64,000 nucleotides of DNA. Origin: Escherichia coli. GTDB taxonomy: Bacteria; Pseudomonadota; Gammaproteobacteria; Enterobacterales; Enterobacteriaceae. Position 1 is the first letter of the stretch. Each line of letters opens with the position of its first letter. Both the position numbers and the translations under genes were made by a program. Below the pieces are notes generated by a model. That model saw nothing but the letters and a program-made list of their open reading frames with translations. It ran no database searches and was not told the DNA's origin. The stretch lies in assembly GCF_003790525.1 (NCBI RefSeq), contig NZ_CP033635.1. One strand, written 5' to 3'. Positions 8,599 to 17,236 of this stretch are shown here, in pieces.

Positions 8599-9079
8599 CG
8601 AGTAAATCCGGTAATTTATCCCCTGCCCGCGCACACTGATTTGCCCCCTTCGCAATAAGGGTTTTCAGATGGTCAAGATGGCGCGGTGTTAAATCAGGAA
8701 ACTGTCGTTGCATGGATAAAGGGATGGAATCAAGCGTACTGGATAACGCCATTGCCAGCTTGCTGAGGGCAAAAATACAGAACCCGGTGTCAATAAGTTT
8801 TCCTTTTGACACCTCATTTTTTAACTGCTGTGTAACAGCCTGTTCTGCTGTCAGTTCCCATCTGGCAATAAGCAATTTCTCCTCATAGTCGTCTTCGCTA
8901 TCGCCATCAGGCACATCGTTTTTACTTCTTCTCAGATACGATATGTAAAAATCACGCCAGGCATCCAGATCCAGTTGCCCTCGCTTATTCGATATCGGGG
9001 CACCCGGCAATTTCTGCAGTCTGCGAAGCTGGCGATCGGTCAGACTCAAATGCCTGGCAACTTCAGTCTGCGTAGCCAC
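8570..9079 (-). CDS. Nu1: Terminase small subunit (Nu1-like)
   Basis: 169 aa; N-terminal HTH-like MATQTEVARHLSLTDRQLRRLQKLPG; immediately between cos and A; C-terminal region resembles lambda Nu1. Confidence 0.8.
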   Translation of the reverse strand: MATQTEVARHLSLTDRQLRRLQKLPGAPISNKRGQLDLDAWRDFYISYLRRSKNDVPDGDSEDDYEEKLLIARWELTAEQAVTQQLKNEVSKGKLIDTGFCIFALSKLAMALSSTLDSIPLSMQRQFPDLTPRHLDHLKTLIAKGANQCARAGDKLPDLLDEYIRATTE

Positions 9080-9149
9080 TGTTCACCTCGCAAAAAATCT
9101 CCCCTCATGCGTTTTAAACATGCATCTTGCGAGCAACTTTATGCAAACG

Positions 9150-9330
9150 CACGCATATGTCCGGTTTGTTTGTACATTTTTTGCACATGTCCGGTTCGCA
9201 GAAAGCATGTTTTTATATTTTTCATATAGTTAACTTGCAGAGAAACCGGACATGGATCCCGGAAAATTTTCATAAATAGCGAAAACGCGCGAGGTCGACG
9301 CCCCGTAACGGGTCCACATGCCGGAAAGGA
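9150..9330 (-). other. cos packaging site (cosN around 9292..9304 plus cosB-like repeat sites toward Nu1)
   Basis: Reverse complement of 9255..9305 reads GGGGCGTCGACCTCGCGCGTTTTCGCTATTTATGAAAATTTTCCGG, almost identical to the lambda cos sequence as remembered (GGGCGGCGACCTCGCGGGTTTTCGCTATTTATGAAAATTTTCCGG); three copies of ATGTCCGGTT (9154..9167, 9184..9198, inverted at 9244..9255) sit between cosN and the Nu1 start like lambda R sites. Confidence 0.65.
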
Positions 9331-9502
9331 CCCGCAAAATGATAATAATTATCATCTACATGTCACAACGTGCATCTACGCCATCAAACCACGTCAAATA
9401 ATAAATTATGACGCAGGTATCGTATTAATTGATCTGCATCAACTTAACGTAAAAACAACTTCAGACAATACAAATCAGCGACACTGAATACGGGGCAACC
9501 TC

Positions 9503-9697
9503 ATGTCAACGAAGAACAGAACCCGCAGAACAACAACCCGCAACATCCGCTTTCCTAACCAAATGATTGAACAAATTAACATCGCTCTTGAGCAAAAAGG
9601 GTCCGGGAATTTCTCAGCCTGGGTCATTGAAGCCTGCCGTCGGAGACTAACGTCAGAAAAGAGAGCATATACATCAATCCAAAGAGATGATGAATAA
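9503..9697 (+). CDS. Small basic hypothetical protein, possible ribbon-helix-helix DNA-binding protein
   Basis: 64 aa ORF between cos and bor; arginine-rich N-terminus then IRFPNQMIEQINIALEQKG, reminiscent of RHH folds. No stronger evidence. Confidence 0.3.
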   Translation: MSTKNRTRRTTTRNIRFPNQMIEQINIALEQKGSGNFSAWVIEACRRRLTSEKRAYTSIQRDDE

Positions 9698-10054
9698 ACA
9701 TCCCGGTTTCTTCCACCATCGCACCGGAAAAGCGACTATGAGGGTAACCCTGCGTCTGTCAGCACAGTAAAACCCGGTGTGCATCGTTTTTGATTATTCC
9801 CGCACACTCGCGCAGAGGAGTTCCCCGTCGGGCTACGGTCATGGTTAATGCGGGAATACGGCGACGATGCAGCGCAGCTAAAAGGGTAATGGACGGATAG
9901 ACCGGTTTATTTCATTCTACAGGATTCTGAGTGTCCCCAACTCCCTCCAATCGTCTGAGCGCCACCTGTGTAGTTTTAATTTTCATCAATCCATTTAACT
10001 ATCGTTTAATTGTTGTCACATAGGATTCTGCCGTTTTTAACAATGCAGGATAAT

Positions 10055-10351
10055 AAGATGAAAAAAATGTTGTTTTCTGCCGCTCTGGCAATGCTTATTA
10101 CAGGATGTGCTCAACAGACGTTTACTGTTGGAAACAAACCTACAGCCGTAACACCAAAGGAAACCATCACCCATCATTTCTTCGTTTCGGGAATTGGGCA
10201 GAAGAAAACTGTCGATGCAGCAAAAATTTGTGGTGGTGCAGAAAATGTGGTTAAAACAGAAACCCAGCAAACATTCGTAAATGGATTGCTCGGTTTCATC
10301 ACTTTTGGCATTTATACTCCGCTGGAAGCGCGGGTGTATTGCTCAAAATAA
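10055..10351 (+). CDS. bor: Bor lipoprotein (serum-resistance / Iss family)
   Basis: MKKMLFSAALAMLITGCAQQTFTVGNKPTAVTPKETITHHFFVSGIGQKKTVDAAKICGGAENVVKTETQQTFVNGLLGFITFGIYTPLEARVYC matches lambda Bor as recalled, including lipobox LITGC; opposite strand to the lysis genes as in lambda. Confidence 0.9.
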   Translation, partial: KMKKMLFSAALAMLITGCAQQTFTVGNKPTAVTPKETITHHFFVSGIGQKKTVDAAKICGGAENVVKTETQQTFVNGLLGFITFGIYTPLEARVYCSK

Positions 10352-10382
10352 TTGCATGAGTTGCCCATTGATATGGGCAGCT

Positions 10383-10859
10383 CTATCTGCACTGCTCATT
10401 AATATACTTCTGGGTTCCTTCCAGTTGCTTCTGCATCGTCATCAACCGTTCTCTGAGGGTGAAATAATCCCGTTCAGCGGTGTCTGCCAGTCGGGGGCTG
10501 GTTGCATTATCCACGCCGGAGGCGGTGGTGGCTTCACGCACTGACTGACAGACTGCTTTGATGTGCAACCGACGACGACCTGCGGCAACATCATCACGCA
10601 GAACATCATTTTCAGCTTTCGCATCAGCTAACTCCTTCGTGTATTTTGCATCGAGCGCAGCAACATCACGCTGACGCTGCTGCATGTCAGCGATGGTGGC
10701 GATCGCCTGCTTCAGCTCACTGACTTTTTTATCGCGCTGCTCTTTGTAAGTGATGGCGTTATCGCGGTAATGATTGACCGCCCACGACAGGCAGACGATG
10801 ATGCAGATAACCAGAGCATAAATAATCGCGGCGACTCTGCTCACTGATCTATTCCCCAA
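10383..10859 (-). CDS. Rz: Spanin inner-membrane subunit Rz
   Basis: 158 aa; [36 protein letters not shown]...[64 protein letters not shown], near-identical to lambda Rz. Confidence 0.9.
10442..10624 (-). CDS. Rz1: Spanin outer-membrane lipoprotein Rz1 (embedded in Rz, +1 frame)
   Basis: 60 aa [60 protein letters not shown]; lipobox VVGC and proline-rich core as in lambda Rz1. Confidence 0.85.
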
Positions 10860-11374
10860 CAGGCTAATGCGCTTTCCTGGTCACGACGAATAACCTGTCC
10901 GTAGCAGTTATTTGAACGTGTGCGGCAATCACGCCCACCGTCCTTAATCCACCAGCGAATCGACTCACAGGCACCTTTACGATCACCGGCATTAAGCCGC
11001 TTATAAAACGTCGACGGGAAACACTTACCGGGGCCAATGTTATAGGGACAGAATGACGCTATACCCGCTTTCTGTGGTTCGGTCAGTGGTACTTTAATAT
11101 TGCGCTCCACCCATGCCAGCGCCTTATCACGCTCAATGGCATTAACCTGAGCGCATTTTTCCTTCGACAGCTTCATTCCCGGTATGACGGGCTTACCATC
11201 CACCATTGTGGCACCACGACAGATGGTCCATATACCGGAACCATCGCGGTATGCCGTTGTGTGGTTACCTTCTTTTTCATCCAGAAACTGGTCGAGAATA
11301 TCAGGCGCAGGCGCACCGACGGCAATCAGTGCCAGAACGGCAGCCGACAGGCCGTATCTGATTTTTGCGTTCAT
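10841..11374 (-). CDS. R: Endolysin R (phage lysozyme, T4-lysozyme-like glycosidase)
   Basis: 177 aa; [22 protein letters not shown]...[15 protein letters not shown]...[16 protein letters not shown]; resembles the R lysozymes of lambdoid/Stx-type phages; overlaps Rz start. Confidence 0.85.
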
Positions 11375-11497
11375 GTATATTTATCAGGATCTAAAGGTTT
11401 ATAACCCTGGATATATCAGGTATATAATCCAGTACCAGCATGTCTCATAAACATACCCGTTCAGGAAAACCAAACGACAACAGATGAGGCTTCAGAA

Positions 11498-11875
11498 ATG
11501 AACAGTAAAGAAAATTTGCGCAGTAGATTTTTGCAACTAATGACAGAAAAAGTTAAATCAGCGCTACTTCCACTTATGGTGGATAATAACGAAGCAACGA
11601 GCAGCATCCTTGCAGACCCTTACGGTAAACTCTCGCATAAAACGCTGGATATTATTATGAGTGCATTAACACCCCGTATGCTTCAACACCTGAAACAAGA
11701 TATTAACGCATGGGTGAATGAAGAATTGAGCCCCCCCTGTTCATGGGACAGACATTATGCATGGCAGCAAAAAATGAGGATTTTCAATTCATTATCACTA
11801 AAGTTCAGAGAACCGAAACAGCGTCCCTTCCCTCTGGAATCAGATAAAAAACAACCTGATCCCACAGGCCCGTAA
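11498..11875 (+). CDS. Hypothetical protein (possible moron between holin and endolysin, opposite strand)
   Basis: 125 aa ORF starting at ATG with upstream purine-rich sequence; no recognisable family. Confidence 0.3.
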   Translation: MNSKENLRSRFLQLMTEKVKSALLPLMVDNNEATSSILADPYGKLSHKTLDIIMSALTPRMLQHLKQDINAWVNEELSPPCSWDRHYAWQQKMRIFNSLSLKFREPKQRPFPLESDKKQPDPTGP

Positions 11876-12031
11876 TATTTTGAATACCGTGATTATTGAT
11901 ATCACAATGAAAGCTATTCCGCACAGTTATGCCCTGCTCCCCACGGGGCATGCCTCATGAAACGTTCCGGGCGTTTCATGTTCCCGGATTTTGTTAAAAG
12001 GTATATTATCCCCTCACTCCCGGGATATTCG

Positions 12032-12304
12032 TCATATTTCTTTTGGTGCCTTTTTCGCAATCTCAGCCACAGCATGTGCCGTAGCCGGAACATTACCGGC
12101 ATTAGTTCGTTCCAGAATTTCGAGCAATATGCGGGTTCGTTTTTCCTGCTCCCGTTTGTTAAGGCGATAAGTAAGAACGCCAAGAATGATACTGAACGCC
12201 ACGCCGATAATAAATCCCCAATCCTGCAGTGACAGGCTGGCAAAGAACGCAACAAGTCCTGCGCTGCCGTATGCAGCGTTACTGTATCGTTCGTCCATTC
12301 TCAT
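12032..12304 (-). CDS. Putative holin (two predicted TM helices)
   Basis: 90 aa; hydrophobic stretches GSAGLVAFFASLSL and GFIIGVAFSIILGVLTY followed by charged tail KREQEKRTR; sits upstream of the endolysin in the late operon. Not lambda-S-like; assignment by position and topology. Confidence 0.4.
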   Translation of the reverse strand: MRMDERYSNAAYGSAGLVAFFASLSLQDWGFIIGVAFSIILGVLTYRLNKREQEKRTRILLEILERTNAGNVPATAHAVAEIAKKAPKEI

Positions 12305-12643
12305 AGTCCCTCACCTCCGCCATCCGACATTACGGACGGCAGCAAGTCAGAATCTCGTTATAAAAAAGCCGCACGAAGAGGCTGTTTGTTCAGGTATTTT
12401 ATCCAGTGCGCCGTAAAACCCCGACCTTCAGGGTGTGGAGGATGTCAACATCAATAACTGACATTCTGCCCAAAGCTCCCGAAGATTCCCTTTGCACAAT
12501 TTCACTGACCGGATCTCAGCACAAGCCACAGGGAATGGTCAGTGTGACGCTCTCTGTGGCCCCTCCTGAAAAGCCCTGTGGTTTAATCGCGACGGACCTG
12601 GCGCGGATATGAAGCAGGCCGTGAGCACGAGCCTGGAAATTTA

Positions 12644-12719
12644 GTGCCGACTACCGGAATTGAAGTGGTGGCCTGATGGTTACAACTAAACTGTTCTGCC
12701 GACTGAGGTAAGTCGGCGC
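12644..12719 (-). ncRNA. tRNA-like element / possible degenerate third phage tRNA
   Basis: Abuts the two tRNAs; perfect 7-bp terminal complementarity (GCCGACT ... AGTCGGC) and a D-loop-like AGTCGG, but I could not fold a convincing cloverleaf or anticodon arm and there is no encoded CCA. Confidence 0.25.
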
Positions 12720-12796
12720 TGGACCGCCACCGGGGACTCGAACCCCGCACAGTCAGCTTAGAAGGCTGATGCTCTCTCCTGATGAGCTAGTAGCGG
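12720..12796 (-). tRNA. argN: tRNA-Arg (anticodon UCU)
   Basis: Minus-strand read CCGCTAC..CTCATCAGGAGAG..CAGCCTTCTAAGCTG..GGGGTTCGAGTCCCCGGTGGCGGTCCA: 7-bp acceptor (one G-U), anticodon loop with UCU, T-loop TTCGAGT, encoded CCA. Confidence 0.8.
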
Positions 12797-12797
12797 T

Positions 12798-12873
12798 TGG
12801 TGGCCCTTGCTGAATTTGAACCAGCGCCCTTGCGATTATGAGTCGCTCGCTCTCACCACTGAGCTAAAGGGCC
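12798..12873 (-). tRNA. ileZ: tRNA with CAU anticodon (Ile2-lysidine type or Met)
   Basis: Minus-strand read GGCCCTTTAGCTCAGTGGTGAGAGCGAGCGACTCATAATCGCAAGGGCGCTGGTTCAAATTCAGCAAGGGCCACCA: canonical cloverleaf, anticodon CAT, encoded CCA; resembles the ileX/ileY-type tRNA carried by lambdoid phages. Confidence 0.8.
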
Positions 12874-13327
12874 TCGAGCAGCATAATAACGTTACGGGAT
12901 TAATACCGCAAATCTCAGAGAAAGCCCGACAAACCCAACTAAGCGCACCTCTTATCTGGTCCGCCAAAGAGCTTAATGTCCGGTGCAGATTTTCGATGTA
13001 AAAAACCGCCTGGCTGCGGGTTTAAGTTGTGTGGCGTAGGAACCACTCTTACCATGATATGCATACTTTTACGATCGTAAAGTGTTTGTTCATACCCTGC
13101 ATGCTGCATGATTCACCCCACATACAATCTCTGGATTGTTGCGACGCTTGGCAAGATGTAATTAAAGATTATGCATTCTTCTATGCACGTATTTTTCTTC
13201 AAAAGCAATGTCTTTATTAAGGTTATATAAATAACTCATAACCCCAAATAATTAAATATATTTAGCACTTCTAATAAAAAAGATTGATCTTAATTTTTTG
13301 AGTGAAAGATAGCCATCTATTTATTAG

Positions 13328-14523
<1,196 letters not shown>

Positions 14524-14671
14524 TTAGCTTGCATGACTTCTTATTTTGTGATAGTGGTCACATATAAAGAATCGGACTCCTTAATTTTCCTTGTATACAT
14601 TATACACAGAAATTAAATTTTCATCCTGATAGCATTTTGTCGTCCAATTAACTCCCACCAGAGGATAAAAA

Positions 14672-15778
14672 ATGAAAAATTTAACAGTGGCACTTTCTGC
14701 TGTAGCAGCATCAGTATTTCTGGCAACGTCTTCAAATGCAGCAGAAATATACAATAAAGATGCAAACAAAGTGGATTTATACGGTAAAGCAGTTGGTTTA
14801 CATTATTTTTCTTCTGATAAGGACCAAAACGGAGATCAGACTTACGCACGCCTTGGATTCAGAGGTGAAACCCAAATAAATAATTATATTACTGGTTTTG
14901 GTCAGTGGGAATATAATTTCCAGGGGAACAACCCTGAAGGGGATGGAGCTCAAACTGGAAACAAGACTCGCCTGGCATACGCTGGTCTGAAGCTTGCAGA
15001 TGCTGGCTCTCTTGACTATGGTCGTAACTACGGCGTGGTGTACGACGCATTAAGCTACACTGACGTCTTCCCGGAGTTTGGACCTACCACAGCGCAAAAG
15101 GATAACTTCTTCGTTGGTCGTGTAGGCGGTGTTGCCACATACCGCAACACTGACTTTTTTGGACTGGTCGATGGGCTTAGCTTTGCAATTCAGTATCTGG
15201 GAAAAAATGAACGCAAGGATAAACCAGATACTTCAAACGGAGAGGGTGTAGGTGGCTCTGTCAGCTATGAATATGAAGGATTTGGTTTTGTCGCAGCATA
15301 CGGCGCTGCTGATCGTACTAAAAATCAGAAAAAGGCTGAGCTTGGTAAAGGGAAAAAAGCTGAACAGTGGGCCACCGGGGTAAAATATGACGCAAATAAT
15401 CTGTACCTGGCTGCCAGTTATGGTGAAACAAATAATACCCGTGCAATATCGTATGGTGATAATATTTCAGGAGTGGCGAATAAAACCGAAGATTTCACTG
15501 TTGTGGCACAATACCAGTTCGACTTTGGATTACGCCCGTCTCTTGCTTATACCCACTCTAAAGCAAAAAACCTTTCATCCAGTACTGATATTAGTAAAAA
15601 ACATGATGACGGATATATTGAAAAATTCGTTGAAGTAGGGGCTTCTTATTACTTCAACAAAAATATGTCTACATACATAGATTACAAAATCAATATGCTC
15701 GATAAAAATAAATTCACTGAAAGAACAGGAGTATCAACCGACGATATTGTCGCTGTTGGTCTGGTTTATCAGTTCTGA
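14672..15778 (+). CDS. Outer-membrane general porin, prophage-encoded (NmpC/Lc/OmpC family)
   Basis: 368 aa; signal peptide then AEIYNKD.NK.DLYGK...; [10 protein letters not shown]; [12 protein letters not shown]; [15 protein letters not shown]; C-terminal [12 protein letters not shown]; typical 16-strand porin signature, closest by memory to the DLP12 nmpC product. Confidence 0.9.
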
Positions 15779-15919
15779 TTTATTCTGTAAGAATATGCCG
15801 GGGGAGTGAGAACTTTTCTGGCATATAAAGTGGTGCCCTCATGCCACTGCAAAACGTTGGACAGTACTTAACTTTTCCAACGAACTTTCTGTTATTTATT
15901 AACCTTTTTGGTTTTTATA

Positions 15920-15948
15920 CTTGGGCGCTTTGCGCCCATTTTTTATTT
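15920..15948 (+). terminator. Rho-independent terminator downstream of the porin gene
   Basis: GGGCGCtttGCGCCC hairpin followed by ATTTTTTATTTTGT on the plus strand. Confidence 0.45.
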
Positions 15949-15956
15949 TGTACGCC

Positions 15957-16379
15957 TTATATCCCTGCCCTGGAGGACACAGTTTTACGACGTATCGAAT
16001 AATTTGTGCTCACATATCGATCCATCTCAAGGCGAACATCCAGCATCATCAACATACCATCAACCACTCCTTCAGCTTTTTGCAAACGCTTTCCAATATG
16101 CGTATCCGAACATCCATGTTTCCTTGCTAACTTCATGAACGTCATCCCATATACGTAGTAATCAACCAGCATGTCATGCATATCGGCGTTGTTCTTTTTC
16201 AGGCGAGCCATACAACCACATATAATCATCGCGTCATCATCGGAACACTGCGATCGCGATTTTACTTTTGACGGTATCAGCCCCTTAAATCCGGCGGCAA
16301 TGCCTGACCATTCCACGTCTTCATGATTATTTGCGACCCATGCCCCCCAACGTTCAAGAACCATCTGAATATCACGCAT
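15957..16379 (-). CDS. Late-gene antiterminator Q (DLP12 QuuD/YbcQ type)
   Basis: 140 aa [64 protein letters not shown]..., resembles the DLP12 prophage Q-like antiterminator as recalled; located upstream of the lysis cassette. Confidence 0.7.
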
Positions 16380-17236
16380 TATTCACACTCCCCAACCAGA
16401 TTGAGGATGACCTCTGCACCATTGTCTTTCATATATTCGCCCTTTCCGCTTGCCAAAAACCAACGACACACCTCCACGGCTTCAGCCCGTGTCACCGGTT
16501 TGATGGTCATCAGCAATTTTTCAAGGTAGCGCTCGCGGTCATATACCGATTCGTGATGCTCAGAGTAACCATACTCATCGCCCTGTTCTTTAGTTGCAGT
16601 GTGGCGAACACTGTAGAGCCAGTCCCAGTAAACAAACTCACGAACTACGTCTGACAATGTATGAGGCTCTGGCAGTACATCACGATAGCCATCAACATAT
16701 GCACGACGCTGATCATCAATTTCATTCATACGGATGCCGTCAATTCTGCCCGCTTTCTTCTCGGCTGCAGTCCAGCCCCAGAGATGATCGTCGATAAATT
16801 TCTGGGAAGACTTGATCACTCGCTCGGCTTCCACATCTTCGAGTGCTGCTTCATAGCTACCAAACGTAGCCCTGACTGATGCTGCTTTTTTGATATTCTC
16901 CCGGGCGATCCTGATTGCCTGTGCCGGGTTATCCATGCCGATGGTACCGAAAGCAATCTGGAAAGGATCGCCACCATTCGCCAGCAGATAACGCGAATAG
17001 CGTTCCTGGGCCTCTTTTGGGGATATTTTAATTTTCACCAGCGCGGCCTCAGCAGCATCCAGATGTGCGGGTTCGTTCAGACGGATAACCTCCAGTACCC
17101 AAAGATAAGCATCAGTCTGCTTATGCCCGGTGATTCTCCGTTGCTCTGGCAGGGGTTTGATGTTTGCGAGGGCGGAGCTGTACGCTGCCGTCGGGATGGT
17201 GAATAGTGCTTTATGTTCGTTGTTATCAGTACGCAT
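16379..17236 (-). CDS. Hypothetical phage protein (285 aa) immediately upstream of Q
   Basis: Clean ORF translationally abutting Q; no recognisable motif. Confidence 0.4.

What the first reader, a model, noticed from the sequence alone, without database searches (positions are those of the whole stretch)
11375..12304. Lysis cassette interrupted by an opposite-strand ORF; holin assignment uncertain
In lambda and Stx phages the holin directly precedes and often overlaps the endolysin gene. Here the best holin candidate (12032..12304, two TM helices) is about 650 bp upstream of the endolysin start, with a 125-aa plus-strand ORF (11498..11875) in between. Either a moron has been inserted into the lysis cassette or the true holin is something else.
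Basis: seen in the sequence. Interest (0 to 1): 0.3.

Follow-up and report, generated by a model that had tools for sequence, protein, structure and literature searches.

The report
Prophage lysis genes with a passenger gene
This is an ordinary E. coli lambdoid prophage lysis cassette whose 90-aa holin is genuine, and the opposite-strand gene between holin and endolysin is a conserved passenger gene of unknown function that sits at the same spot in about one in nine E. coli genomes.

Summary
The coordinates are correct. On the minus strand lie a 90-aa ORF (12304..12032), a 657-bp gap, a 177-aa lysozyme (11374..10841) and Rz/Rz1. A 125-aa plus-strand ORF (11498..11875) sits in the gap.

The 90-aa protein is a class II, phage-21-like holin:
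- It matches phrog_1350 at E 3e-29.
- It has a weak G/A/S-rich first helix, a strongly hydrophobic second helix and a basic tail.
- It has an M-R-M dual start.
- It is 77% identical to holins that abut the endolysin in isolated phages.
- No other holin candidate lies in the window.

The plus-strand ORF is a real gene. It matches phrog_1853 at E 5e-41, has dN/dS of 0.14-0.38, and is 39% GC against 52% for its neighbours. Its function is unknown. Homologues occupy the same site, divergent from the endolysin gene, in Stx2 phage 86, O157 Sakai prophage Sp4 (ECs_1097) and 626 of 5,426 complete E. coli genomes.

Homology to those cassettes stops at about 11819. So the holin side was swapped, which removed the ORF's stop codon (+21 aa) and its usual 190-aa convergent partner. 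This exact mosaic occurs in 19 of 5,426 genomes.

The cassette is ordinary and interest is low.

The parts
12032..12304 (-). Holin gene (90 aa). Class II, phage-21/HP1-like, with an M1-R2-M3 dual-start motif and a strong Shine-Dalgarno sequence (GGAGGTGAGG) upstream.
   Evidence: phrog_1350 'holin' at E 3.1e-29, full length. Pfam PF16080 and PF04971 match below their cut-offs. 77% identity to holins that abut the endolysin in PhiR46_1 and UPF_BP1. First helix at residues 10-26 is weak and G/A/S/T-rich; second helix at 29-45 has Kyte-Doolittle hydropathy (KD) 2.2; the C-terminal tail has net charge +4. AF2 helices at 4-22 and 26-66.
11820..12031 (.). Mosaic joint segment between the end of the conserved ORF core and the holin stop. 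It holds two tandem hairpins (11928-11952 and 11956-11980) that could act as a weak terminator for the plus-strand ORF.
   Evidence: Homology to L008 and Sakai-type cassettes ends at 11808-11819. Homology to phage holin90 genes starts at 12032. The segment is found in only 19 of 5,426 E. coli genomes and in no phage record. Hairpins are from the fold (z -2.4).
11498..11875 (+). Passenger gene (125 aa; conserved core of 104 aa at 11498-11809, plus a 21-aa read-through tail). Soluble, all-helical, function unknown. phrog_1853 family, the same as ECs_1097 of O157 Sakai and gp06 of Stx2 phage 86.
   Evidence: phrog_1853 at E 4.8e-41. Alignment A1. dN/dS 0.14-0.38. 39.4% GC against 52% in the flanking lysis genes. 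AF2 pLDDT about 88 for residues 10-75 and below 50 for the tail. No Pfam, NCBIfam or PADLOC hit.
11375..11497 (.). Divergent intergenic region between the endolysin and the passenger ORF. Contains a perfect TATAAT at 11423-11428, GAGG 8 nt before the ORF's ATG, and a 23-nt block (11377-11399) next to the endolysin start that is invariant in all eight aligned homologues.
   Evidence: Alignment A2. The promoter scan did not call a site because the -35 hexamer is weak. The promoter is therefore inferred, not shown.
10841..11374 (-). Signal-anchor-release (SAR) type endolysin (177 aa), a T4-lysozyme-family muramidase with E35-x8-D44-x5-T50.
   Evidence: PF00959 at E 3.8e-24, above cut-off. phrog_7 at E 9e-63. 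PDB sequence hits to 3hde/3hdf and 4zpu RrrD. N-terminal G/A-rich hydrophobic stretch at residues 8-24, KD 1.9.
10383..10859 (-). Rz i-spanin (longest ORF; the likely start is the GTG at 10844, which overlaps the endolysin stop).
   Evidence: PF03245 at E 1.6e-52. phrog_13 at E 1.6e-77.
10442..10624 (-). Rz1 o-spanin lipoprotein, embedded in Rz in another frame.
   Evidence: PF06085 at E 5.9e-20. phrog_3198.
10058..10351 (+). bor/iss-like lipoprotein gene, a classical opposite-strand moron just beyond Rz.
   Evidence: PF06291 at E 9.6e-31. phrog_260. 41.8% GC.
12720..12873 (-). Two phage tRNA genes upstream of the holin: tRNA-Arg(UCU) at 12720-12796 and a CAU-anticodon tRNA (Met/Ile2) at 12798-12873.
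   Evidence: ARAGORN. Rfam RF00005. Annotated as tRNA-Arg and tRNA-Ile in the homologous E. coli locus.

Best explanation
The region is a mosaic lambdoid-prophage lysis cassette that works in the standard way. The late transcript starts downstream of the Q antiterminator gene (15957..16379, minus strand) and runs leftwards through the tRNAs, the holin, the 657-bp interval, the endolysin and Rz/Rz1.

The 90-aa protein is a class II, phage-21-like holin. It probably makes a holin/antiholin pair from its M1-R2-M3 dual start. When it triggers, it depolarises the membrane and releases the membrane-tethered SAR endolysin. Rz/Rz1 then disrupt the outer membrane.

The plus-strand 125-aa ORF is not a lysis gene. 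It is a low-GC accessory gene ('moron') of the phrog_1853 family, and it lies divergent from the 177-aa endolysin gene in many E. coli prophages. It is most likely transcribed from its own promoter (TATAAT at 11423-11428) against the direction of late transcription, like bor.

In this lineage, recombination at about 11819-12031 replaced the usual S21-type holin, and where present the 190-aa convergent partner gene, with a phrog_1350 holin. That exchange removed the ORF's stop codon and added 21 residues.

Shown here: gene identities by profile and homology, the mosaic boundaries, conservation of the site, and purifying selection on the ORF. Inferred: transcription pattern, read-through by Q-modified polymerase, pinholin behaviour, and expression of the ORF in the lysogen. 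The biochemical role of the ORF is unknown.
For: Holin:
- phrog_1350 at E 3e-29.
- Aligns with S21-type holins, BLASTP E 3e-5 over both helices.
- The M-[KR]-M start is conserved in four family members.
- Hydropathy, G/A/S/T content and basic tail mirror S21-type holins.
- Homologues in isolated phages overlap the endolysin start.

Endolysin and spanins. PMC8136144 reports that 99% of the Stx phages it analysed carry a predicted SAR endolysin plus pinholin.

The ORF is a gene:
- phrog_1853 at E 5e-41.
- 22 cluster representatives among 1.84 billion, typically 104-107 aa.
- dN/dS 0.14-0.38, including 0.19 between two partner-less copies.

Same site elsewhere:
- Stx2 phage 86 gp06 and Stx2_12E129.
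- Sakai Sp4 ECs_1100/1097/1096.
- 626 of 5,426 E. coli genomes.
- 80 of 80 IMG/VR loci carry the ORF next to lysis genes on the opposite strand.

Presence/absence polymorphism: the sister prophage, with a 94-99% identical backbone, has holin and lysozyme 4 bp apart and no ORF.

Low GC: 39% against 52%.

Mosaic joint.

Viability of interrupted cassettes: Stx2 phage 86 is deposited as a complete phage genome and carries 1.26 kb between S and R.
Against: - No experiment was done here. Holin function, pinholin behaviour and the dual start are inferred.
- The Pfam holin models score below their gathering cut-offs: 22.4 against 28.8 bits, and 19.6 against 26 bits.
- The consensus promoter scan found no plus-strand promoter for the ORF and no canonical terminator after it.
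- The ORF has lost its ancestral stop. PGAP flags the homologous copy in strain DG341-1 as an incomplete pseudogene.
- Database variants are frameshifted at the C7 and A6 runs.
- An IS5 (13328-14523) lies between Q and the holin and could reduce late transcription.
- Fold searches gave only generic helical matches, so no function can be assigned to the ORF.
Confidence: 0.85

Rival explanations
1. The 125-aa ORF in this window is a decaying remnant. It is the orphaned half of a two-gene convergent module (phrog_1853 ORF plus a phrog_1085 protein of about 190 aa). It lost its partner and its stop codon in the recombination that brought in the new holin, and it no longer does anything.
For: In diverged homologues and in about 31 of 80 IMG/VR loci, the ORF is convergent with a 185-190-aa phrog_1085 gene whose 3' end abuts or overlaps it. 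The window has no trace of that partner. The stop codon is lost, giving a 21-aa low-confidence tail. PGAP calls the E. coli DG341-1 copy a pseudogene. Frameshift variants occur at homopolymer runs.
Against: The 104-aa core is intact. Partner-less copies are the commonest arrangement, at 47 of 80 IMG/VR loci and 626 E. coli genomes. Partner-less copies still show dN/dS of 0.19. The intact 125-aa form is the dominant variant of this lineage, in a cluster of 38 sequences.
Confidence: 0.25
2. The opposite-strand ORF, with or without its 190-aa partner, is a dedicated lysis regulator. It would set lysis timing or keep the holin/endolysin silent in the lysogen, either as a protein or through convergent or antisense transcription into the holin gene.
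For: Every homologue found lies inside or at the edge of a lysis cassette, even at about 25-45% identity and next to different holin families: PF16080, PF04971 and PF05106. A 23-nt block next to the endolysin start is invariant across homologues. ORF transcription converges on the holin 3' end.
Against: The ORF is on the strand opposite the late operon. It has no membrane segment, with a maximum KD of 0.9. It is absent from most lysis cassettes, including the sister prophage and all but 4 of the 344 phage records that carry this endolysin type. It has no similarity to known antiholins or any defence model. Low GC and patchy presence fit cargo better.
Confidence: 0.12
3. The 90-aa ORF is not the holin. 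The real holin lies elsewhere or is missing, so the cassette is defective.
For: The holin is not adjacent to the endolysin. The Pfam holin models match only below threshold.
Against: There is a full-length phrog_1350 match. Close homologues occupy the canonical position in three isolated phages. No homologue of S21-type, lambda-S-type or HP1-type holins lies elsewhere in the 64 kb. No other unassigned small minus-strand membrane ORF lies between Q and the terminase genes.
Confidence: 0.03

Closest known systems
E. coli O157:H7 Sakai prophage Sp4 lysis region (ECs_1100 holin / ECs_1097 hypothetical / ECs_1096 endolysin)
   Same: Same layout: holin on one strand, a homologue of the passenger ORF (79% identity) on the other strand, and 118-123 bp to a 177-aa endolysin followed by Rz/Rz1. 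DNA homology to the window covers 10836-11808.
   Different: The Sakai holin is the 71-aa S21 type. The spacer between the ORF and the holin is 256 bp and unrelated. The ORF keeps its normal stop (104 aa as the full ORF; annotated as 90 aa).
Stx2-converting phage 86 (NC_008464) S - gp05 - gp06 - R
   Same: gp06 (104 aa, opposite strand, 46% identity) sits immediately upstream of, and divergent from, the 177-aa endolysin gene. The S-R interval is interrupted in a phage deposited as a complete genome.
   Different: Phage 86 also carries the convergent partner gene gp05 (DUF1327 N-domain plus phrog_1085 C-domain, 268 aa) and an S21-type holin. The region upstream of the ORF differs.
Phage 21 S21/R21 pinholin plus SAR-endolysin system (also DLP12 essD/rrrD and Qin essQ/rrrQ)
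   Same: Two-helix holin with a G/A/S-rich first helix, a dual start and a basic tail, paired with an R21-like lysozyme that has an N-terminal G/A-rich membrane anchor.
   Different: The window holin is 90 aa with a long extra C-terminal helical tail. It belongs to a different profile family (phrog_1350) and scores below the Pfam cut-off for PF04971. It is not adjacent to the endolysin gene.
Holins of phages PhiR46_1, Salmonella UPF_BP1 and Providencia PSTCR3 (phrog_1350)
   Same: 63-78% identical 90-aa proteins with the same M-[KR]-M start.
   Different: In those phages the holin stop overlaps the start of a 157-165-aa endolysin, and there is no opposite-strand ORF.
Lambda bor (and lom, or nmpC/lc porins): opposite-strand morons inside the late operon
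   Same: A small, low-GC, opposite-strand gene embedded in late-transcribed DNA, and patchily present among related prophages. A bor homologue lies 500 bp away in the same cassette.
   Different: Bor is a known lipoprotein with a serum-resistance phenotype. The 125-aa protein has no signal peptide, no known fold relative and no known function.

Membership tests
Class II (phage 21 / HP1-like) holin | Small protein with two transmembrane helices and a charged, net-basic C-terminal tail | tested here: met
   KD peaks at residues 10-26 (1.5) and 29-45 (2.2). The tail has net charge +4. AF2 helices at 4-22 and 26-66. No dedicated topology predictor was available.
Class II (phage 21 / HP1-like) holin | Profile-HMM membership | tested here: inconclusive
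   phrog_1350 'holin' at E 3.1e-29, full length, and phrog_20 at E 1e-8. Pfam PF16080 (22.4 bits, cut-off 28.8) and PF04971 (19.6 bits, cut-off 26) fall below threshold. No NCBIfam hit.
Class II (phage 21 / HP1-like) holin | Dual-start motif giving holin and antiholin | tested here: met
   M1-R2-M3 is present in the sequence and conserved as M-[KR]-M in four family members. S21-type relatives have M-K-S-M. Use of both starts cannot be tested here.
Class II (phage 21 / HP1-like) holin | Gene immediately upstream of (or overlapping) the endolysin gene | tested here: not met
   There is a 657-bp gap in the window. The feature is met in the homologous phages PhiR46_1, UPF_BP1 and PSTCR3.
Class II (phage 21 / HP1-like) holin | Timed, energy-poison-triggerable membrane permeabilisation | not testable with these tools
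   Needs expression and lysis-curve experiments.
Pinholin subtype (S21) | Weakly hydrophobic, G/A/S-rich first helix able to leave the membrane; partnered with a SAR endolysin | tested here: inconclusive
   The first helix is 59% G/A/S/T with KD 1.5, against 0.5-0.85 in S21-type holins. The partner endolysin has a SAR-like N-terminus. Exit of the first helix from the membrane is untested.
SAR endolysin (R21-like, Pfam Phage_lysozyme) | PF00959 domain with the E-x8-D-x5-T catalytic triad | tested here: met
   PF00959 at 85.8 bits, cut-off 22.3. E35, D44 and T50 were read from the translation. PDB sequence hits to 3hde/3hdf and 4zpu.
SAR endolysin (R21-like, Pfam Phage_lysozyme) | N-terminal uncleaved, weakly hydrophobic G/A-rich signal-anchor | tested here: inconclusive
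   Residues 8-24 ([17 protein letters not shown]) have KD 1.9. Absence of cleavage and release from the membrane cannot be tested here.
Moron (autonomous accessory gene in a prophage late region) | Present or absent among otherwise closely related prophages | tested here: met
   The sister prophage in TUM1886 (backbone 94-99% identical) has holin and lysozyme 4 bp apart and no ORF. Only 4 of the 344 phage records with this endolysin type carry the ORF.
Moron (autonomous accessory gene in a prophage late region) | Base composition different from neighbouring phage genes | tested here: met
   The ORF core is 39.4% GC and the upstream intergenic region 37.4%. The endolysin and Rz are 52%.
Moron (autonomous accessory gene in a prophage late region) | Own promoter and terminator | tested here: inconclusive
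   A perfect TATAAT at 11423-11428 is conserved in E. coli copies, and two hairpins lie downstream. The consensus scan called neither a promoter nor a terminator on the plus strand.
Moron (autonomous accessory gene in a prophage late region) | Expressed from the repressed prophage and of benefit to the host | not testable with these tools
   Needs transcript mapping and phenotyping. No paper mentions ECs1097.
phrog_1853 (uncharacterised phage protein family) | Profile-HMM match | tested here: met
   E 4.8e-41; residues 1-102 match profile positions 57-158 of 159.

The most novel reading that the evidence does not exclude
The phrog_1853 ORF and its convergent phrog_1085 partner of about 190 aa may form a previously unrecognised two-gene module that specifically colonises lambdoid lysis cassettes, either upstream of the holin or between holin and endolysin. 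It might tune or veto lysis, or exclude superinfecting phage. Under this reading the window carries a partner-less, C-terminally altered survivor of that module. The strict association with lysis genes across holin families and the invariant 23-nt block at the endolysin start would then be functional rather than historical.
Probability: 0.12. Interest if true: 0.5.

Novelty: already known. Interest (0 to 1): 0.14.

Why it matters
It matters little beyond correct annotation. The 90-aa gene can safely be labelled a class II holin. The gap before the endolysin should not be read as a broken cassette. The opposite-strand ORF should be annotated as a conserved hypothetical gene (ECs_1097 / phrog_1853 family) rather than ignored or called a pseudogene. 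One modest open point remains. A small, purifying-selected gene family of unknown function, often paired with a convergent 190-aa gene, is found only inside lysis cassettes of enterobacterial prophages, including Stx phages. Nobody appears to have tested what it does.

Tried and rejected
- Pfam, NCBIfam and PADLOC scans of the 125-aa ORF gave no hit.
- An exhaustive profile search of 1.84 billion representatives found only 22 relatives and no link to a named family.
- I looked for a remnant of the 190-aa partner, of DUF1327/YdfR, or of a second holin anywhere in the 64-kb window. None was found.
- I looked for another small membrane ORF in the late region. None was credible.
- I looked for the origin of the joint segment 11815-12035. 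It is found only in the same mosaic in 19 E. coli genomes and in no phage record.
- An Rfam scan of 9000-17000 found only the two tRNAs.
- The promoter/terminator consensus scan found nothing usable for the plus strand.
- Literature searches found no paper on ECs1097 and none on an S-R interval gene.
- I first took the partner to be 'YdfR'. That was rejected: K-12 YdfR (DUF1327) corresponds only to the N-terminal domain of Stx2-86 gp05, not to the conserved phrog_1085 C-domain.

Full report
**Observation**

- On the minus strand lie a 90-aa ORF (12304..12032), a 177-aa ORF (11374..10841), a 158-aa ORF (10859..10383) and, embedded in it, a 60-aa ORF (10624..10442).
- The interval between the first two is 657 bp (11375-12031). 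It holds a plus-strand ORF of 125 aa (11498..11875).
- Profile scans identify the downstream genes as Phage_lysozyme (PF00959, 85.8 bits), Rz (PF03245) and Rz1 (PF06085).
- A bor/iss-like lipoprotein gene lies on the plus strand at 10058..10351.

The surrounding window is an E. coli lambdoid prophage.
- Terminase, portal and capsid genes lie to the left.
- Two tRNAs, an IS5, a porin gene and a Q antiterminator gene lie to the right.

**Is the 90-aa ORF the holin?**

Yes, as far as sequence can tell.
- It matches PHROG family 1350 ('holin') over its full length at E 3e-29.
- It matches the Pfam HP1 and P21 holin models only below their cut-offs.
- It aligns with S21-type 71-aa holins across both hydrophobic helices (BLASTP E 3e-5).
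- Its physical profile is the same as theirs. The first helix is weakly hydrophobic and 59% G/A/S/T (residues 10-26). The second helix is strongly hydrophobic (29-45, Kyte-Doolittle 2.2). The tail is net basic.
- An AlphaFold2 model gives helices at 4-22 and 26-66.
- The N-terminus is M1-R2-M3. The same M-[KR]-M motif is present in all four family members aligned. This is the classical dual-start arrangement of lambda S and S21 (established knowledge). A strong Shine-Dalgarno sequence precedes it.
- Homologues at 63-78% identity in Escherichia phage PhiR46_1, Salmonella phage UPF_BP1 and Providencia phage PSTCR3 sit in the canonical place, with their stop codon overlapping the endolysin start.
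- No homologue of S21-type, lambda-S-type or HP1-type holins occurs elsewhere in the 64 kb.
- No other credible small membrane ORF lies between Q and the terminase genes.

The partner lysozyme has the E35-x8-D44-x5-T50 triad and a G/A-rich hydrophobic N-terminus. It hits the PDB entries for the phage 21 lysozyme and for RrrD. That fits the SAR-endolysin/pinholin pairing reported for 99% of Stx phages (PMC8136144).

**What is the plus-strand ORF?**

It is a real, conserved gene of unknown function.
- It matches PHROG 1853 ('unknown function') at E 5e-41.
- Word-indexed and exhaustive protein searches find a very small family: 15 clusters and 22 representatives respectively. The named members are all from E. 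coli; most carry no source name.
- Its members have a typical length of 104-107 aa, ending in ...LSLKFR.
- Pairwise dN/dS over the 104-codon core is 0.14-0.38.
- The core is 39% GC, against 52% for the flanking lysis genes.
- The protein is soluble (maximum hydropathy 0.9) and all-helical. The AF2 model has pLDDT about 88 for residues 10-75.

**The arrangement is common**

- Homologues occupy the same site, opposite strand and 118-147 bp from the start of a 177-aa endolysin gene. Examples are Stx2-converting phage 86 (gp06), two Stx2a phages and other E. coli prophages.
- In E. coli O157:H7 Sakai prophage Sp4 the order is ECs_1100 holin, ECs_1097 hypothetical, ECs_1096 endolysin.
- The Sakai-type S-R interval is present at 80% coverage or more in 626 of 5,426 complete E. 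coli genomes.
- A scan of IMG/VR returned 80 loci, all with the ORF opposite to adjacent lysis genes.
  - 47 have holin, 256 bp, ORF, 118 bp, endolysin.
  - About 31 have an additional minus-strand gene between the ORF and the holin.
  - 2 are of the window type.
- K-12 Qin (essQ-ydfR-rrrQ) is another interrupted S-R pair.

The sister prophage and the phrog_1350 phages do show the abutting layout.

**How the window arose**

- DNA homology to the S21-holin/ORF/endolysin cassettes runs from 10389 to 11819. It stops exactly at the end of the 104-codon core.
- Homology to phage phrog_1350 holin genes begins at 12032.
- The 212-bp joint between them occurs only in this mosaic, in 19 of 5,426 E. coli genomes at 99% identity or more. 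It is absent from 50,697 phage records.
- A prophage in strain TUM1886 has a 94-99% identical backbone. It carries a plain S21-type holin 4 bp from the lysozyme gene, with no ORF and no tRNAs.

So the ORF was not inserted here. It came with the endolysin module, and the holin side was exchanged. The exchange removed the ORF's stop codon and added 21 low-confidence residues.

It also left the ORF without the gene that often accompanies it. That gene is a 185-190-aa minus-strand gene whose 3' end abuts or overlaps the ORF.
- It belongs to the phrog_1085 C-domain family, with the motif IGRCMGYLQVAAEIE...DFDNPPFK...YLKGRI.
- It is found between ORF and holin in Stx2-86 and L008. In the diverged homologues L017-L021 the pair sits upstream of the holin.
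- That partner family is also entirely uncharacterised.
- K-12 YdfR (DUF1327) corresponds only to an optional N-terminal domain of it.

**Mechanism**

Shown here:
- the gene identities;
- the mosaic boundaries;
- conservation of the site;
- selection on the ORF;
- its deviant base composition;
- its presence/absence polymorphism.

Inferred from lambdoid biology:
- Q-modified RNA polymerase starting downstream of Q (15957..16379) reads leftwards through the tRNAs, holin, interval, endolysin and spanins.
- The holin triggers and releases the SAR endolysin.
- The ORF is transcribed the other way from its own promoter. Supporting features are a perfect TATAAT at 11423-11428 conserved in E. coli copies, and GAGG 8 nt before the ATG.
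- The ORF transcript ends at two tandem hairpins at 11928-11980.
- The consensus scan did not call either signal, so these remain inferences.

Interrupted cassettes are compatible with a working phage, since Stx2 phage 86 has 1.26 kb between S and R.

**Rivals**

1. *The window copy is a dead remnant.* It has lost its stop and its partner. PGAP flags a homologous copy as a pseudogene. Variants are frameshifted at the C7 run (11731-11737) and the A6 run (11769-11774). Against this, the core is intact, partner-less copies are the majority, and they show dN/dS of 0.19. I give about 0.25 for non-function of this copy.
2. *The ORF is a lysis regulator.* Its exclusive association with lysis cassettes across three holin families is suggestive, as is an invariant 23-nt block at 11377-11399. 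Against this are its strand, its lack of a membrane segment and its patchy presence. I give about 0.12.
3. *The true holin is elsewhere.* I give about 0.03.

**Verdict**

This is an ordinary lambdoid lysis cassette. Near-identical copies are already in public genomes (99% in IMG/VR locus L022). The holin call is sound. The 'interruption' is a catalogued but uncharacterised passenger gene family at a standard site. Only the particular holin/ORF mosaic is uncommon. Interest is low.

Noticed in passing
window 13328-14523 (transposase ORF 13396..14376, plus strand): An IS5 copy is a simple insertion relative to the sister prophage in E. coli TUM1886. The flanks align contiguously, with a 4-bp overlap consistent with a target duplication. 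It lies 148 bp upstream of the porin gene (14672..15778) and in the path of late transcription between Q and the holin. It could affect porin expression, lysis-gene expression or both.
   Followed up: partly
window 11731-11737 (C7) and 11769-11774 (A6), inside the 125-aa ORF: Homopolymer runs. Database variants of this ORF (P0004, P0005, P0002) are frameshifted exactly at these runs. This could be assembly error, decay or slippage-based switching.
   Followed up: partly
window 11377-11399: A 23-nt block immediately next to the endolysin start codon (ATATTTATCAGGAT.TA..GGTT) is invariant in all eight aligned homologues, including Stx2 phages whose ORF is only 46% identical. In the consensus it reads as two ATTTAT repeats 10 bp apart. 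Whether it is the endolysin translation-initiation region or a protein-binding site is unknown.
   Followed up: partly
L008 4324-4899, L021 3838-4395, L018 1710-2264, L002 2792-3598 (not in the window): A 185-190-aa uncharacterised protein (phrog_1085 C-domain) is encoded convergently with the phrog_1853 ORF, with 3' ends abutting or overlapping. The pair sits either between holin and endolysin or upstream of the holin. In some phages the protein is fused to a DUF1327 (YdfR) N-domain. It looks like a two-gene module specific to lysis cassettes.
   Followed up: partly
L012-L015 (E. coli and metagenome contigs): Copies of the passenger ORF together with only the first 117-425 bp of the endolysin gene survive in decayed contexts, next to PerC-family and DUF5339 genes or IS66/IS110 elements. 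The ORF therefore outlives the lysis genes in prophage remnants.
   Followed up: partly
window 12720-12796 and 12798-12873, minus strand: tRNA-Arg(UCU) and a CAU-anticodon tRNA (annotated tRNA-Ile in the homologous E. coli locus) lie just upstream of the holin, as in Stx-type phages. They are absent from the sister prophage.
   Followed up: no
L002 about 2400-2430 and L003 about 2435-2465 (Stx2 phages): In the Stx2 phage versions, the -10-like TATAAT upstream of the passenger ORF is replaced by a GC-rich hairpin followed by a T-run (CGCCAG...CTGGCGTTTTT) on the ORF's own strand. These copies may therefore be controlled differently.
   Followed up: no
window 9877-10401: The bor/iss-like gene segment has no counterpart in the otherwise near-identical sister prophage, which carries other small genes there. 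This is a second mosaic replacement flanking the lysis genes.
   Followed up: no
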